A DNA stretch of 64,000 nucleotides from a virus (taxonomy: Duplodnaviria > Caudoviricetes), in IMG/VR virus record IMGVR_UViG_3300043754_000129, positions 160,001 through 224,000 of that record; one strand, 5' to 3'. Numbering within the stretch: position 1 is the stretch's first letter; the number at the start of each line of letters is the position of its first letter. The notes below the pieces were generated by a model. It ran no database searches and was not told where the DNA came from. It was given only the letters and a program-made list of their open reading frames with translations. Position numbers and translations under genes: made by a program. Positions 55,204-58,995 of this stretch are shown piece by piece.

Positions 55204-55758
55204 TTAACGCGTGATACCGTGCTTGTACATGAAGCGGCGCATGTCGTCCATGGCAGTCTTCGTCAGGAGCGTGTTGTACATCGAACGATCCCAGACCTTC
55301 GCTACCAACTCCGCACCCATGTCCTGCTCCATATGGTTCGCGACTTCGATAGCGATCAGCTCATGGATTTCCACATTGGTCACCATGTGGCTATGAAAGC
55401 CAAAGCGATTGTGGATGCTATTGTCTTCGAACGCATCGAAGAACGCCTTCGGACGCTTGGCCACGCAGAACAAATACGCAAGCCACTCCGCCTTCGTGCC
55501 AATCAGGGCCTGGAGCAGATCCCGATCGGTAAACGAGGCACTGGGCGTCGTGAAGATGTTCGTGCCATAGATCGAGTGGAACAACCCCGCGACCTGGACG
55601 TGCTCGGGCATCCCCCACTTCTTCAGGAGGTCTCGCGTACCCTTCAGGTGTTCGAAAAGAGTCCGGCCCGTATGACTGGTCGTGTCCGTATGGAACTGCT
55701 TGAGACAGTCCTCATACGGATCGTAGTCGTGCGCCACTACCGCGATGGGAAACCCCAT
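55204..55758 (-). CDS. HD-like protein resembling DUF6817
   Basis: HTGRTLFEHLKGTRDLLKKWG..AGLFHSIYGT motif; TGATG coupling to the oxygenase gene. Confidence 0.7.
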   Translation of the reverse strand: MGFPIAVVAHDYDPYEDCLKQFHTDTTSHTGRTLFEHLKGTRDLLKKWGMPEHVQVAGLFHSIYGTNIFTTPSASFTDRDLLQALIGTKAEWLAYLFCVAKRPKAFFDAFEDNSIHNRFGFHSHMVTNVEIHELIAIEVANHMEQDMGAELVAKVWDRSMYNTLLTKTAMDDMRRFMYKHGITR

Positions 55759-56387
55759 CACGCAGCTTCCGTCGGCATGACGGGCTTGGCACCCACGTGC
55801 GACTTGAACACGAGTGCCGTACGCAGATGCGGACAGTCGCGCGCCGGCGCATTCGCCTTGTGCGGGATGTGGCCCGGGAACGTCACGATACGGAACGGCA
55901 CGGCCGCTGCGGCCTTGATGATGTCCTTCTCGTCGAGCGAGTAGAACAGCGTCTCGCCGCCCCAGGGTGCCTTCCAGTCCGGGTTCGTGTAGATGATCGT
56001 CGAGAAGTAGTTCTCGGTGTCGCGGTTGTCGACGTGGATGTAGCCTTCCGTGCCGAACGTGTGGGCGTTGCCATACGCGCGCAGCGGCTCGTGGCCTTGC
56101 AGGATCGTCTTGCTCAGCAGATCCCACACTTGATACACGGAGAAGTTCTCCGGCTTTTGGCGCAGCTGGTCCGCACAGTTCACGCGGCTATTGAGGTCGC
56201 CACCTGCGAAGTGCGTGTGCCAGAAGCTGTACTTGTCCTTCTCGGCGTTGCTCTTCCAGCCATAGGCCCAACGCGGCTGCTTCATGAGCGCGGCGATGGC
56301 GTTCTGGAGCTCAGCCGGGATCAGTCCGTCATGGATCTGAATGCGGGCGATGAGGTCAGCGTGCTTCGTTTGAATTGCTTGGTTCAT
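55758..56387 (-). CDS. 2OG-Fe(II) oxygenase (prolyl-4-hydroxylase-like), copy 3
   Basis: HVD, IIY..W...WGGETLFY, FPGHIPH, LRTALVFK. Confidence 0.85.
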   Translation of the reverse strand: MNQAIQTKHADLIARIQIHDGLIPAELQNAIAALMKQPRWAYGWKSNAEKDKYSFWHTHFAGGDLNSRVNCADQLRQKPENFSVYQVWDLLSKTILQGHEPLRAYGNAHTFGTEGYIHVDNRDTENYFSTIIYTNPDWKAPWGGETLFYSLDEKDIIKAAAAVPFRIVTFPGHIPHKANAPARDCPHLRTALVFKSHVGAKPVMPTEAA

Positions 56388-56397
56388 GGTTCTCTTC

Positions 56398-57021
56398 TTA
56401 CATGCGGAGGATCTGCTTCGAGCGGAACGAGAGCAGCGGAAGGTATTGCGGAGCTTCACGGGTCGGCCCGTTCGGCTTGTGGGGCAACAGTCCCGGGAAC
56501 GTGATCACGCGGAACGGTTTCGGTTCCACCGCGCAGATGATGTCATTCATCTCACGATCGTAGAAGACCATCTCGCCACCCCAATGAGCTTGCCACTCAT
56601 CGAAGGCAAAGATAATCGTCGAACGATAGTTCGTCAGGTTCAGGCCATTGCCCATCTTACCCTGATCCTCAGGATCAGTGTTGTCACCGTGCGCATAGCC
56701 TTCGCAGCCGTGATGAAACCCAATCACGAAGGCGCGCATGAGACTGTGGCCTTTCAGGAAGGTACTCGTAAAGAGCTTCCAGATTTCAGCCGAGTCGATC
56801 TGGTGACCGTCACGCATGAGGTTCTCTTCTGCGTTTTGGTTGCCGCGCAACGGATTCGCCACGCTGCGGCCCCAGACGGGATACTCGTCCCAGGGCGCGG
56901 TCTGCCAGCTATAGGTCCAGAGTTCCTTCTTCACCGTAGCGGCGAGTCGGTCCTGAATGTCTTTCGGGATGATGTCGTCATAGACGTGCACCTCATCCAT
57001 CAAACTACCCATTGCTTTCAT
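56398..57021 (-). CDS. 2OG-Fe(II) oxygenase, copy 2
   Basis: HGD, WQAHWGGEMVFY, FPGLLPH; the usual 2OG-binding Arg position reads LPLLSF. Confidence 0.8.
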   Translation of the reverse strand: MKAMGSLMDEVHVYDDIIPKDIQDRLAATVKKELWTYSWQTAPWDEYPVWGRSVANPLRGNQNAEENLMRDGHQIDSAEIWKLFTSTFLKGHSLMRAFVIGFHHGCEGYAHGDNTDPEDQGKMGNGLNLTNYRSTIIFAFDEWQAHWGGEMVFYDREMNDIICAVEPKPFRVITFPGLLPHKPNGPTREAPQYLPLLSFRSKQILRM

Positions 57022-57602
57022 GTTTCTCTTCTTTTCCTCGAACGAAAACCGAGCACACCACGCATCTTGTCAGTCTCTCGTGTTGGGGGGCTGATGCGGT
57101 GAGGGATGTGGCCGGGCGAGATGATGACGCGAAGCGGCTTAGGCTCAATCACCTTGATGATATCCGACTCATCTTGCGTGAAGTACATGAGCTCCCCGCC
57201 CCAATGAGCTTGCCACTCACTGTGGATATAGAGAAGCGTCGTGTAGTAATCCTCTTCTTTGCCATCGATGTGGACGTGACCATCCATGCCTTGCGTGAAG
57301 CTCAGCGCCCAAAAGCGCAAGAGTTCATGCTCGGGCAAGTACTTCTGTTTGATGATCGCCCAGAACTTACCAAGGAGGTAGGTGCGCCGATCTGCGTAGA
57401 GTTCTGCTTCGCAGTTCCCCAAGTCAGTAGCGTCCGAGCCTCCCATAAACAACGCGCCCCAGTTCTTATACGCGTAGTTATTGGTGGTCCAGTTGTTAGC
57501 CCAAATGGGCTGTTGCGTCAGACGTTGCAACTCCCCGCGCAGCGCCTGAGGAATCGGTACATCGTCGTAGACTTGTACCAATGCTGCCAGGTCTTGTGTC
57601 AT
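57018..57602 (-). CDS. 2OG-Fe(II) oxygenase, copy 1
   Basis: HID, WQAHWGGELMYF, SPGHIPH, MRGVLGFRS. Confidence 0.85.
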   Translation of the reverse strand: MTQDLAALVQVYDDVPIPQALRGELQRLTQQPIWANNWTTNNYAYKNWGALFMGGSDATDLGNCEAELYADRRTYLLGKFWAIIKQKYLPEHELLRFWALSFTQGMDGHVHIDGKEEDYYTTLLYIHSEWQAHWGGELMYFTQDESDIIKVIEPKPLRVIISPGHIPHRISPPTRETDKMRGVLGFRSRKRRET

Positions 57603-57619: not shown

Positions 57620-58180
57620 ATAAAAAAAGGGGTAATGCCACAGCCCACTGAGGACGGCCGTGGTACAGCGTTCATCTATCTCATCCGGGGAGACGACCGT
57701 TTCAATAGACTTCTACTGTACCCAAACGCACACTAGCGTTGACGCTCGCACCGATACACTGATGCGCCGAACGGATAATCCTCAGCAGGCTGCGTTCTAG
57801 GAGCAAAGCTCAACCAGAGTACAACTTCCCAGATCCACTGGGCGTACCGAATAGGCAGTCGGGCCAGCAAGAAACCCTTTGCGTGTGGGCAAACACACGT
57901 GGTCTTTTAATCGGTATCAGACCATAGACTGTGAGAACAGCTAAAGAGGAAGCAGTGTATCTGGTACCCCCACGGCACCCTGTGGGCTCTAGGCTGTCTC
58001 ACGACAGTCTGTTGTCAAGCCCATCACACCAACAACCACCACCGAGATAAGGATCTCGTGCCGCACTTTCGCAGGCGTTTCACCTGAGCGTTCCCCGACC
58101 GTGGTAAAGACCACAATCAGAGGCACTGGAGACTTGCACTCCTCTTCAGACAGTATCAACGGTACTACCAGGGATTTCTC
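57620..58180 (-). ncRNA. large structured non-coding RNA of unknown class (~550 nt)
   Basis: No credible ORF. Terminal helix 58160-69/57631-40 is followed by a U-tract. A 14-bp helix (57779-92/57641-54) contains G-U pairs only on the minus strand. A 9-nt loop-mediated pairing links 57953-61 and 57753-61. Many short hairpins, some with GNRA loops. Confidence 0.7.
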
Positions 58181-58208
58181 CCCGCATAGAATAGCCGTCG
58201 TGCGGTTT

Positions 58209-58643
58209 TTACTTATCCATGGCCCCATTGACCGCGCCTTGCACCACGCGGCGCACCAGCGACTTGGGCTTGCGTGCACCGAGGTGCTGATGGTCGTCCG
58301 GGGTCATCGGGATTTCCGAGCTCTGCTTCAGACGCACACCACCGGCCGCTGCCACGAATTGGGCACCGAGCGACACCGCCCCAGCACTGAACGCCATGCT
58401 GTTAAACGAGTGATGCCAGATCGTGTCAAGGTAGGTGAACCACAGGAAGAACACGCCGAACAGTCCGCACAGCAGGTACGGGATCAGACGGGCCGGGTCG
58501 ACGTCACCGTTCCAGCTGGTGAACATGTCACCGCAGACTTTGGCGATGAACGCGAAGACCATCGAGAGTTCTTCCTGGATGAACTTCACCAGGACTTGCA
58601 GGGTCACATACGGGCCAATGCGGGCCCAGAGCTTTTGCCACAT
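58209..58643 (-). CDS. two-TM membrane protein, possibly holin-like
   Basis: GGAG RBS; DMFT..D..RL, two TM segments, AAGG..K..E.P ending reminiscent of small proteobacterial-phage holins. Confidence 0.45.
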   Translation of the reverse strand: MWQKLWARIGPYVTLQVLVKFIQEELSMVFAFIAKVCGDMFTSWNGDVDPARLIPYLLCGLFGVFFLWFTYLDTIWHHSFNSMAFSAGAVSLGAQFVAAAGGVRLKQSSEIPMTPDDHQHLGARKPKSLVRRVVQGAVNGAMDK

Positions 58644-58767
58644 GTTGTTGGTTCTCCAAAAGGTTATACAACACACAATAGAAATCAACAAGAAAAAAAG
58701 ACAGCAAAAAAAGAGGGACCCGAAGGTCCCCCATAAAAGAGTGCGTTCGGCACTCGGAGCAATTCGT

Positions 58768-58995
58768 TCACATGTCCCAGTCCCAAGTCGGCCGAGCAGA
58801 CTGCTCAGCCGCATAGAGGTCCCGGGCACGCTGGGAGATCTGAACAATCGACGAAGGCACGACAGGCGTGGGGACCGGCGCAGCGTTAGGCTTGTAAGGC
58901 CTGCTCTGCCGCTCACGTCTGTCGCGTTCTTGGGCTTCTCGCATAAGCTCCGAGAAGGGTACGAATCCAGTAACTGCATTGACTGCGTCTACCAT
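58768..58995 (-). CDS. small hypothetical protein
   Basis: GGTGAG upstream of ATG; 75 aa. Confidence 0.55.
   Translation of the reverse strand: MVDAVNAVTGFVPFSELMREAQERDRRERQSRPYKPNAAPVPTPVVPSSIVQISQRARDLYAAEQSARPTWDWDM

What the first reader, a model, noticed from the sequence alone, without database searches (positions are those of the whole stretch)
57620..58180. Large (~550 nt) pseudoknotted non-coding RNA of no recognisable class
Seen in the sequence: this is the longest ORF-less gap in an otherwise tightly packed genome, and the minus strand is full of long-range complementarity. (1) A terminal helix GGUAGUACCG (58169-60) / UGGCAUUACC (57640-31) closes the whole element and is followed by a U-tract. 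(2) A 14-bp helix CAGCCUGCUGAGGA (57792-79) / UCCUCAGUGGGCUG (57654-41) has two G-U pairs that become C-A mismatches on the plus strand, which fixes the strand. (3) The hairpin loop AGUGUAUC (stem CGCAUC/GGUGCG, ~57747-66) is perfectly complementary to GAUACACU ~200 nt upstream (57961-54), a loop-mediated pseudoknot crossing helix 2. (4) A second H-type crossing involves GGUACAG/CUGUACC (57722-16/57668-62) and ACGGUCG/CGGCCGU (57700-694/57660-54). (5) There are many local hairpins (GUGGU-CUUU-ACCAC, CGAGAU-CCUU-AUCUCG, CUGUC-GUGA-GACAG, CAGGU-GAAAC-GCCUG). It lacks the hallmarks of tmRNA, RNase P, tRNA or group II domain V. Inference: an ornate jumbo-phage ncRNA (scaffold, ribozyme, anti-defence decoy, or giant leader of the oxygenase operon that starts ~20 nt downstream). 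A TATG, the phiKZ late-promoter core, at 58178-58175 could start it.
Basis: partly seen in the sequence, partly recalled or inferred. Interest (0 to 1): 0.88.

Follow-up and report, generated by a model that had tools for sequence, protein, structure and literature searches.

The report
Ornate hammerhead ribozyme RNA, jumbo phage
The 0.6-kb gene-free stretch encodes a real, conserved, heavily folded RNA of giant soil phages: its front half is a disguised self-cutting hammerhead ribozyme (a known class in an unusually elaborate form) and its back half is a well-supported folded domain whose job is still unknown.

Summary
The minus strand of 57622-58188 encodes a ~564-nt structured RNA. I found homologues in 14 other sequences: IMG/VR jumbo phages, soil metagenome contigs, the cultured Burkholderia phage FLC9, and one phage-like contig.

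The RNA does belong to a recognisable class. Its 5' half is a type I hammerhead ribozyme, hidden by large insertions. All 15 sequences keep CUGANGA, G10.1, C11.1-GAAA, U16.1 and H17 (never G). Stem I occurs in four fully paired versions, and pair 15.2/16.2 covaries (C-G, U-A, G-C).

Stem II is a single G-C pair closing three hairpins. Stem III carries a ~130-nt insert in the window clade but is a plain hairpin in FLC9. Predicted cleavage lies between 57933 and 57932, giving fragments of about 253 and 311 nt.

The 3' domain is a long helix closing a three-way junction. It has 68 consensus pairs, 96% canonical, 28 with compensatory changes. It matches nothing in Rfam.

The most likely role is a self-processing module that releases a structured 5'-OH RNA or leader ahead of the next gene. 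No RNA-seq data exist. Earlier notes from this scan reported hammerheads heading large RNAs in other jumbo phages.

The parts
58185..58188 (-). Conserved TATG (inside CTATTYTATGC), a candidate phiKZ-type late promoter core. The G at 58185 would be the transcription start.
   Evidence: Present in 12 of 12 window-type homologues, including L036, which lacks the following hairpin. In phiKZ, TATG is the late promoter and its G is +1 (PMC4666361). The longer motif is not enriched elsewhere in the window. Promoter function is inferred.
58171..58183 (-). 5' leader hairpin P1 (GGGGAGAAAUCCC)
   Evidence: The stem sequence differs between homologues but always pairs, e.g. GGUAGGC/GCCUAC, GGAGCC/GCUCU, GGAGGU/ACCUCC.
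58150..58154 (-). Hammerhead stem I, 5' strand (ACUGU)
   Evidence: Pairs with 57932-57928. The 15 sequences show four versions, all 5 of 5 paired: ACUGU/ACAGU, GCUGU/ACAGC, GCUCU/AGAGC, UCCCG/CGGGA. Dealing strands at random among sequences matches this in 77 of 200000 permutations.
58142..58149 (-). Hammerhead core C3-A9 (CUGAAGA) plus G10.1
   Evidence: CUGANGA followed by G is invariant in 15 of 15 sequences. N7 is A in 9 and U in 6.
58072..58141 (-). Expanded stem II domain with three hairpins. A is GAG-UGCAAGU-CUC (58141-58129). B is variable (58124-58088) and includes GUGGU-CUUU-ACCAC. C is CAGGUGAAACGCCUG (58086-58072).
   Evidence: A covaries (GC, CG, AU). The base and body of B covary. 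C is conserved, with one G-C for A-U change. The same three-hairpin layout appears in the minimum-energy folds of the compact FLC9 and L063 versions.
58067..58071 (-). Hammerhead C11.1 and G12-A13-A14-A15.1 (CGAAA)
   Evidence: Invariant in 15 of 15 sequences.
58060..58066 (-). Hammerhead stem III, 5' strand (GUGCGGC)
   Evidence: Pairs with 57941-57935. Pair 15.2/16.2 is C-G in 10, U-A in 3 and G-C in 2, canonical in all 15. Only 2 of 200000 permutations match this. Stems reach 7-11 bp in L021, L007, L017, FLC9 and L063. The window copy has a U-U at the second pair.
57946..58059 (-). Lineage-specific insert inside stem III. It holds hairpin CGAGAU-CCUU-AUCUCG (58058-58043), the conserved GGUGGUG, the invariant hairpin CUGUC-GUGA-GACAG (58007-57994), and a hairpin with a conserved UGGG loop (57979-57963).
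   Evidence: Conserved or covarying across 12 window-type sequences. Absent from FLC9 and L063, where stem III is a simple hairpin.
57933..57941 (-). Stem III 3' strand (GCUGUUC), U16.1 (57934) and C17 (57933). Predicted self-cleavage falls between 57933 and 57932.
   Evidence: U16.1 is invariant. H17 is C in 6, A in 5 and U in 4, never G.
57928..57932 (-). Hammerhead stem I, 3' strand (ACAGU). This would be the first nucleotides of the 3' cleavage product.
   Evidence: See stem I above. RNAalifold also predicts this long-range helix on its own.
57850..57927 (-). Insert after stem I: three hairpins (57923-57901, 57901-57882, 57877-57861) followed by the conserved GACUG (57860-57856).
   Evidence: The hairpins are conserved or covary in 12 sequences. 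GACUGU can pair with ACAGUC in the RNAalifold consensus, which would compete with stem I. That pairing is not in the window's own minimum-energy fold.
57821..57849 (-). Hairpin CGGUAC-GCCCAG...CUGGG-AAGUUGU, ending in the invariant AGUUGU (57826-57821).
   Evidence: AGUUGU is present in 15 of 15 sequences, 6 to 136 nt after the cleavage site. It may pair (UUGU) with GCAA in the hairpin A loop. The loop variants GCGA and GUAA keep wobble pairing. It may instead pair locally with CG(G/A)U. This is inferred.
57797..57817 (-). Hairpin Px (CUGG-UU-GAGC-UUU-GCUC-CUAG)
   Evidence: Two pairs show compensatory changes and 90-95% of cells are canonical.
57639..57794 (-). 3' domain. A long helix (57794-57778 with 57655-57639) and the helix CCGU/ACGG close a three-way junction of hairpins H1 (57766-57747), H2 (57741-57723) and H3 (57722-57662). 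H3 has a conserved internal loop and the tip CGG...CCG.
   Evidence: Together with the two hairpins at 57821-57849 and 57797-57817, the consensus has 68 pairs over 10 sequences, 96.2% canonical, against 32-43% when partners are slid by 1-3 columns. 28 pairs have compensatory double changes, against 3-6 in the slid controls. The same fold is recovered in the single-sequence minimum-energy structure.
57622..57628 (-). U-tract after the 3' domain. It lies about 20 nt before the ATG (57602) of the first 2OG-Fe(II) oxygenase gene.
   Evidence: Seen. No canonical terminator stem precedes it. It is absent in L040, L041, L007, FLC9 and L017.

Best explanation
The gap encodes one transcript of about 564 nt on the minus strand, probably starting at the G of the conserved TATG (58185).

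Its first ~250 nt fold into a type I hammerhead self-cleaving ribozyme with an unusually elaborate periphery. Stem I is 5 bp. Stem II is reduced to the G10.1-C11.1 pair closing three hairpins. Stem III carries a ~115-nt structured insert.

The ribozyme is predicted to cut its own chain between C57933 and A57932. That would leave a 2',3'-cyclic phosphate on a ~253-nt 5' piece and a 5'-OH on the downstream RNA.

The downstream RNA begins with several hairpins and a ~200-nt domain strongly supported by comparative analysis. In every homologue this domain ends 20-45 nt before the start codon of the next gene on the same strand. I therefore read the element as a self-processing module. It detaches upstream RNA and leaves a compact, 5'-OH-ended structured leader (or, where the U-tract terminates transcription, a free ~311-nt RNA) at the head of whatever gene follows.

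Shown: conservation, the hammerhead core, and covariation of stems and of the 3' domain.

Inferred: actual cleavage, the promoter, the hairpin A loop to UUGU tertiary contact, and the leader or stabiliser role. What the 3' domain itself does is not known.
For: Family: 15 distinct sequences of 66-88% identity or less were found.

Core:
- CUGANGA, G10.1, C11.1-GAAA and U16.1 are invariant, and H17 is never G.
- Stem I occurs in four fully paired versions. Pair 15.2/16.2 occurs in three canonical versions. Permutation tests give 77 and 2 of 200000.
- RNAalifold finds stem I unaided.

Compact versions:
- FLC9 and L063 fold by minimum energy into exactly stem I, three hairpins and stem III, at z -4.3 and -4.4.
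- Rfam Hammerhead_1 aligns end to end on the L063 copy, weakly (12.4 bits).

Precedent: one-base-pair stem II, stem I/II pseudoknots and phage locations are documented for natural hammerheads (PMC3088659).

3' domain: 96% canonical pairs and 28 compensatory pairs.

Context: the next gene is always close and co-oriented, but differs between genomes. It is an oxygenase here, a PhiKZ_MCP-like protein in FLC9, and a different ORF in L017. There is one copy per genome.
Against: - No experimental or RNA-seq evidence exists. No RNA run holds the sequence.
- Rfam hammerhead models do not reach threshold on any copy, and give no hit at all on the window.
- Stem II is not a normal helix.
- The window's own stem III has a U-U mismatch next to the core.
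- The single-sequence minimum-energy fold pairs the core CUGAAGAGGAG with CUUCCUCUUUAG instead of forming the hammerhead.
- The U-tract in 7 homologues could mean a free-standing RNA rather than a leader.
- The large, conserved 3' domain is far more than a processing site or stabiliser would need. Part of the function is therefore missing from this account.
Confidence: 0.72

Rival explanations
1. The functional product is a free-standing non-coding RNA (scaffold, decoy or protein partner), namely the ~311-nt 3' fragment ending at the U-tract. The hammerhead serves only to mature its 5' end. The downstream genes are incidental.
For: - The 3' domain is the most strongly covarying part.
- Seven homologues have a U-run right after it.
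- The neighbours differ between genomes, as expected for an autonomous RNA gene.
- The candidate TATG promoter lies directly upstream.
Against: - No canonical terminator stem precedes the U-tract.
- The U-tract is missing in L040, L041, L007, FLC9 and L017.
- In FLC9 the RNA runs straight into a ribosome-binding site and ATG.
Confidence: 0.3
2. This is a regulated (allosteric) ribozyme or riboswitch-like leader. The peripheral domains sense a ligand, protein or RNA and switch the hammerhead, or read-through at the U-tract, on or off, so controlling downstream genes.
For: - The periphery is large, conserved and far beyond what catalysis needs.
- ACAGUC at the cleavage site can alternatively pair with the conserved GACUGU.
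- The 3' strand of the long helix overlaps the weak hairpin before the U-tract.
- Perreault et al. speculate about regulated phage hammerheads.
Against: - No covariation distinguishes any alternative state.
- The candidate 'anti-core' pairing is lost in L037 and is weaker than the competing internal helix.
- The compact FLC9 and L063 versions lack these elements.
- No aptamer family matches.
Confidence: 0.15
3. The hammerhead-like junction is a structural relic or mimic that does not cleave. The whole 560-nt RNA acts intact.
For: - Stem II is non-canonical.
- The window copy has a weakened stem III.
- No Rfam hit reaches threshold.
Against: All 11 catalytic-core positions are invariant across sequences that otherwise diverge to below blastn detection. 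H17 follows the 'not G' rule while varying freely among C, A and U. That pattern is what selection for cleavage predicts.
Confidence: 0.1
4. The region is not an RNA gene. It is a decayed protein gene, or complementarity arising by chance in GC-rich DNA.
For: Spurious ORFs of 30-96 aa overlap the region.
Against: - No frame is conserved.
- No gene is called in any orthologous gap.
- There are dozens of compensatory base-pair changes.
- The fold is specific to one strand.
Confidence: 0.01

Closest known systems
Pseudoknot-stabilised hammerhead ribozymes of bacteria, prophages and phages (Perreault et al. 2011, PMC3088659; Rfam clan CL00010)
   Same: - The catalytic core is identical (CUGANGA, GAAA, A15.1-U16.1, NUH).
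- The topology is type I.
- The location is an intergenic region of a phage.
- Stem II can be as short as one pair.
- A tertiary contact between the stem II side and the flank of stem I is likely.
   Different: - Stem II here closes three hairpins, so the drawn junction is five-way.
- Stem III holds a ~115-nt conserved insert in most members.
- The candidate pseudoknot partner lies up to 136 nt from stem I.
- A ~200-nt conserved domain follows.
- No Rfam hammerhead model reaches threshold.
Discontinuous mouse hammerhead with a very large loop (cited in PMC3088659; details from my own knowledge of Martick et al. 2008)
   Same: The hammerhead strands are separated by a large insertion.
   Different: That ribozyme sits in a eukaryotic 3' UTR. 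Its insert is not a conserved folded domain. It has no branched stem II.
Large ornate bacterial and phage RNAs: GOLLD, ROOL, OLE (Rfam)
   Same: They have similar size (about 500-600 nt), many helices, an association with phages, and unknown function.
   Different: No sequence or structure match was found. None of these is known to contain a hammerhead.
Ribozyme-processed leaders: the glmS ribozyme and the synthetic RiboJ insulator (from my own knowledge)
   Same: A self-cleaving ribozyme in a 5' leader leaves a 5'-OH on the downstream message and uncouples it from upstream sequence.
   Different: glmS is a different fold and depends on a ligand. RiboJ is man-made and about 75 nt. Neither carries a 200-nt conserved downstream domain.
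Hammerheads heading large conserved RNAs in other nucleus-forming jumbo phages
   Same: A type I hammerhead sits at the front of a long, conserved, gene-free structured RNA in a phiKZ-like phage.
   Different: Those are described as canonical, compact hammerheads in Klebsiella phages. I could not locate them: RF00163 found nothing in three Klebsiella-host jumbo phages. I found no sequence relationship to this family.

Membership tests
Hammerhead ribozyme (type I) | Core strand C3-U4-G5-A6-N7-G8-A9 between stems I and II | tested here: met
   CUGANGA is invariant in 15 of 15 sequences. N7 is A or U. In the window it lies at 58149-58143.
Hammerhead ribozyme (type I) | G12-A13-A14 plus A15.1 between stems II and III | tested here: met
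   CGAAA is invariant in 15 of 15 sequences. In the window it lies at 58071-58067.
Hammerhead ribozyme (type I) | Cleavage triplet N-U-H, with U16.1 paired to A15.1 and H17 not G | tested here: met
   U is invariant. H is C in 6, A in 5 and U in 4. N16.2 always pairs with 15.2.
Hammerhead ribozyme (type I) | Stems I and III flank the core in the correct strand order and are supported by covariation | tested here: met
   Stem I has four fully paired versions. Stem III is 7-11 bp with compensatory changes.
Hammerhead ribozyme (type I) | Stem II helix starting with G10.1-C11.1 | tested here: inconclusive
   G10.1 and C11.1 are invariant and can pair. Three hairpins lie between them instead of a continuous helix. 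A one-pair stem II has precedent.
Hammerhead ribozyme (type I) | Tertiary contact between the stem I and stem II sides | tested here: inconclusive
   AGUUGU is invariant downstream of stem I. UUGU can pair with GCAA of the hairpin A loop, and the loop variants stay wobble-compatible. No double compensatory change is available to test it.
Hammerhead ribozyme (type I) | Rfam RF00163 gathering score (34 bits) | tested here: not met
   No hit on the window or on FLC9. The score on L063 is 12.4 bits, E 5.2, covering the full model. The insertions explain the penalty.
Hammerhead ribozyme (type I) | Site-specific self-cleavage | not testable with these tools
   No RNA data are available. This needs in vitro transcription.
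RNase P RNA / tmRNA / tRNA | Match to the family covariance model, or ARAGORN detection | tested here: not met
   cmscan up to E = 10 gives nothing relevant. ARAGORN finds none in the window.
GOLLD / ROOL / OLE / group I / group II introns | Match to the Rfam covariance model | tested here: not met
   No hit on the window or on eight homologous loci.
phiKZ-type late transcription unit | TATG with G as +1 | tested here: inconclusive
   TATG is conserved in 12 of 12 window-type homologues at the same place. The motif definition comes from PMC4666361. FLC9, L017 and L063 lack it, and no transcript data exist.

The most novel reading that the evidence does not exclude
The whole ~560-nt molecule is one integrated RNA machine: an 'ornate hammerhead'. 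Its conserved peripheral domains (branched stem II, stem III insert, 3' three-way-junction domain) would either gate cleavage in response to a phage or host signal, making it the first natural allosteric hammerhead, or make up a second, new functional RNA class (ribozyme, protein scaffold or anti-defence decoy) that nucleus-forming jumbo phages mature with a built-in ribozyme.
Probability: 0.25. Interest if true: 0.85.

Novelty: new variant of a known kind. Interest (0 to 1): 0.64.

Why it matters
Hammerheads are abundant in phages, yet their biological role there is an old open question. Almost all known ones are small and simple.

This hammerhead core is embedded in, and apparently co-evolving with, about 450 nt of conserved extra structure in nucleus-forming jumbo phages. 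One member sits in a cultured phage, Burkholderia phage FLC9. Cleavage, ends, expression timing and deletion phenotype can therefore be tested directly.

It also shows that covariance-model libraries miss ribozymes whose helices carry large inserts. Other 'orphan' large RNAs may hide known catalytic cores.

The 3' domain is a well-defined new structured RNA (68 supported base pairs) with no known relative.

Tried and rejected
- Rfam at gathering and at E up to 10, on the window, on eight homologous loci and on the compact FLC9 and L063 copies: only noise, plus one weak Hammerhead_1 alignment.
- RF00163 over five related genomes and three Klebsiella-host jumbo phages: nothing.
- ARAGORN: no tRNA or tmRNA.
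- RNase P-like and permuted tmRNA-like readings of the UGCAAGU loop hairpin and of CAGGUGAAACGCCUG: rejected, because no model matches and the motifs sit inside the hammerhead stem II domain.
- A second hammerhead in the 3' domain (GAAAC ... GGAUGAG): rejected. U4 is G and the strand order is wrong.
- An 'anti-core' switch, with the core GA(A/U)G pairing to C(U/A)UC before UUUAG: rejected. It is lost in L037 and is weaker than the insert's own helix.
- A link to RtcB ligase: RtcB is present only in FLC9.
- A link to the oxygenase operon: not general.
- My model R1 found no copy in Ralstonia RP12 or FLC1-1B, Xanthomonas RTH11 or LucasX, or phiKZ.
- blastn of the window RNA, the G001 copy and the FLC9 copy against 50,697 phage records found nothing beyond FLC9 itself.
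- The extended motif CTATTNTATG is not enriched in the window.
- RNA-seq: no run is available.
- L016, L026 and L027 were chance pattern hits.

Full report
**Setting.** The window is bases 160001-224000 of a 323,678-bp IMG/VR virus record. A 1070-aa virion protein matches phrog_3004 strongly. By tblastn it is 50.6% identical to Burkholderia phage FLC9 and about 31% identical to phiKZ. The genome is therefore a phiKZ-like jumbo phage, and DNA runs holding it are soil metagenomes.

The finding lies between two minus-strand genes. Upstream is an ORF whose real product is about 144 aa. Downstream are three tandem 2OG-Fe(II) oxygenase paralogues.

**Is the RNA real?** The minus strand of 57620-58180 folds at -222 kcal/mol, z -4.2 against dinucleotide shuffles. 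The plus strand gives z -2.2. Rfam gives nothing at gathering thresholds over the whole window and only noise at E up to 10. ARAGORN finds nothing.

Homologues were collected in five ways:
- a DNA search of three related IMG/VR jumbo phages found through the virion protein;
- exact-pattern scans of viral and metagenome contigs with a conserved 21-mer;
- contigs encoding homologues of the upstream 144-aa protein, each of which has an uncalled gap of 570-660 nt before an oxygenase gene;
- blastn against cultured phages, which hit an unannotated 507-nt gap of Burkholderia phage FLC9;
- a scan of prokaryotic genomes, which hit one phage-like contig carrying two DUF5131 genes.

This gives 15 distinct sequences. 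Many share only 66-80% identity, and some are alignable only in islands. No reading frame is conserved. There is one copy per genome.

**The hammerhead.** The alignment shows invariant blocks that spell the hammerhead consensus in type I order:
- ACUGU, then CUGANGA, then G;
- about 45-90 nt;
- C-GAAA;
- a strand pairing with a distant strand that ends in N-U-H;
- ACAGU immediately after that.

Across all 15 sequences the core is unchanged. N7 is A or U. H17 is C, A or U and never G. Pair 15.2/16.2 is C-G in ten, U-A in three and G-C in two, always canonical. Only 2 of 200000 permutations of the column reach that.

Stem I exists as ACUGU/ACAGU, GCUGU/ACAGC, GCUCU/AGAGC and UCCCG/CGGGA (77 of 200000 permutations). 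RNAalifold predicts it unaided. Stem III reaches 7-11 bp with different sequences in L021, L007, L017, FLC9 and L063.

In FLC9 and L063 stem III is a plain hairpin. The minimum-energy fold of those compact versions is exactly stem I, three hairpins and stem III, at z -4.3 and -4.4. On L063 the Rfam Hammerhead_1 model aligns over its full length across precisely these boundaries, but at 12.4 bits against a 34-bit threshold. The insertions explain why no library model sees the family.

A loose hammerhead descriptor matches 0.2% of shuffles of the window RNA. The window itself fails the descriptor's strict stem III clause because of a U-U at the second pair. That is a caveat for the activity of this particular copy.

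**What is unusual.**
- Between G10.1 and C11.1 lie three hairpins. A is a 3-4-bp covarying stem with loop UGCAAGU. B is variable and covarying. C is CAGGUGAAACGCCUG.
- Natural hammerheads with a one-pair stem II, stabilised by a pseudoknot between the stem I and stem II sides, are documented (PMC3088659).
- A candidate for such a contact exists here. AGUUGU is invariant in all 15 sequences at 6-136 nt after the cut. Its UUGU can pair with GCAA of loop A, and the loop variants GCGA and GUAA remain wobble-compatible. A local pairing with CG(G/A)U is an alternative. This stays an inference.
- In the window clade stem III holds a conserved insert of about 115 nt.
- About 100 nt of hairpins separate stem I from AGUUGU.

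**The 3' domain.**

The consensus has 68 pairs. Of all cells, 96.2% are canonical, against 32-43% when partners are slid by 1-3 columns. 28 pairs have compensatory double changes, against 3-6 in the slid controls. The single-sequence fold of the predicted 3' product reproduces it (z -4.0). FLC9 and L017 keep the AAGUUGU motif, CGCAGCCUG and its GGGNUGCG partner, but with different internal content. Nothing in Rfam resembles this domain.

I mapped each claimed helix through the 13-sequence alignment.
- Terminal helix (1) pairs at 2-6 of 10 positions in relatives.
- Loop pseudoknot (3) pairs at 1-5 of 8 positions. Both are peculiarities of this one sequence.
- Helix (4b) is mostly invariant, so it cannot be tested by covariation. 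Its 3' strand is better used in the nested CCGU/ACGG helix, which changes to GUGU/ACAC in L006.
- The TATG is conserved in all 12 window-type sequences, but lies at 58188-58185.
- In phiKZ, TATG is the late promoter and its G is the start site (PMC4666361). Here that would start the RNA at 58185. FLC9, L017 and L063 lack it, and there the hammerhead begins right after the upstream stop codon.
- The U-tract is not preceded by a canonical terminator stem and is missing from five homologues.

**Function.** The shown facts are:
- a catalytic core under strict purifying selection;
- a strongly covarying downstream domain;
- variable neighbours (oxygenases here, a PhiKZ_MCP-like gene and cyclophilin in FLC9, another ORF in L017);
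- a co-oriented gene always starting 20-45 nt after the RNA.

The most economical reading is a self-processing module. Co-transcriptional cleavage between 57933 and 57932 separates upstream RNA from a compact 5'-OH-ended structured RNA. That RNA either heads the next message or, where the U-run terminates, is released as a ~311-nt RNA.

A 5'-OH structured end would be expected to resist 5'-end-dependent decay. This is inference from general knowledge, not tested here. The size and conservation of the periphery suggest that more is going on, such as regulation or a second activity. I could not find evidence for a specific switch: the ACAGUC/GACUGU alternative has no discriminating covariation, and an apparent anti-core pairing fails in L037. 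RtcB is not consistently present. No RNA-seq run holds the sequence.

**Distribution and novelty.** My model of the 5' half found one copy each in the window genome, two IMG/VR relatives and FLC9. It found none in Ralstonia, Xanthomonas or Pseudomonas phiKZ-like phages. Among 50,697 phage records only FLC9 has it.

Hammerheads in phages are known. No paper in the library links hammerheads with jumbo phages. Earlier notes of this scan report canonical hammerheads heading large RNAs in Klebsiella jumbo phages. I could not reproduce that on three Klebsiella-host phages with RF00163, so it remains an untested parallel.

I file this as a new variant of a known kind. It is a hammerhead with a branched stem II and large conserved peripheral domains, fused to a new structured 3' domain.

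Noticed in passing
L018, L019, L022-L025, L028, L029 (metagenome contigs, around the pattern match): Eight near-identical metagenome sequences share GUCUGANGAGAYGUGCAAGUC inside a conserved stretch of about 130 nt, with GUGUUG...CAACAC flanks. They lack CGAAA and the rest of the hammerhead, so they are a different, unexplained conserved element.
   Followed up: partly
window 58209-58979 (minus): The 256-aa ORF is over-extended. The database cluster and seven homologues are 144-154 aa and match only its C-terminal 56%. The gene is probably about 58209-58643, and another small gene may lie upstream.
   Followed up: partly
window 55758-57602 (minus); L040, L041, L042: Three tandem 2OG-Fe(II) oxygenase-like paralogues follow the RNA. 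In relatives they are followed by a DUF6817 protein. PHROG labels the family 'DNA endonuclease V', which looks like a misnomer.
   Followed up: partly
window 58154-58149, 58008-58003, 57860-57856: ACUGUC-like words occur three times and their complement GACAG/ACAGUC twice (the GUGA hairpin and the cleavage site). Several mutually exclusive pairings of the substrate strand are therefore possible in the window clade. FLC9, L017 and L063 do not show this.
   Followed up: partly
L063 1245-1365 (DAHVLJ010000002.1, labelled a Thaumarchaeota MAG): A compact copy of the same branched hammerhead, with AGUUGU 6 nt after the cut, lies on a contig with two DUF5131 (phage Gp37/Gp68) genes. The ribozyme subtype is therefore not confined to jumbo phages, and the contig may be viral rather than archaeal.
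   Followed up: partly
FLC9 LC667451.1 209549-210661: FLC9 encodes a full-length RtcB RNA ligase (433 bits). The window genome and three other carriers of the RNA do not.
   Followed up: yes
window 58195-58205 (minus): A small hairpin (CCG-CACGA-CGG) sits directly after the upstream stop codon and is followed by the U-rich CUAUUCUAUG. It could be a weak terminator of the upstream gene overlapping the candidate promoter.
   Followed up: no
My model of the 5' hammerhead half (R1) did not match there. I did not examine it further.
   Followed up: no
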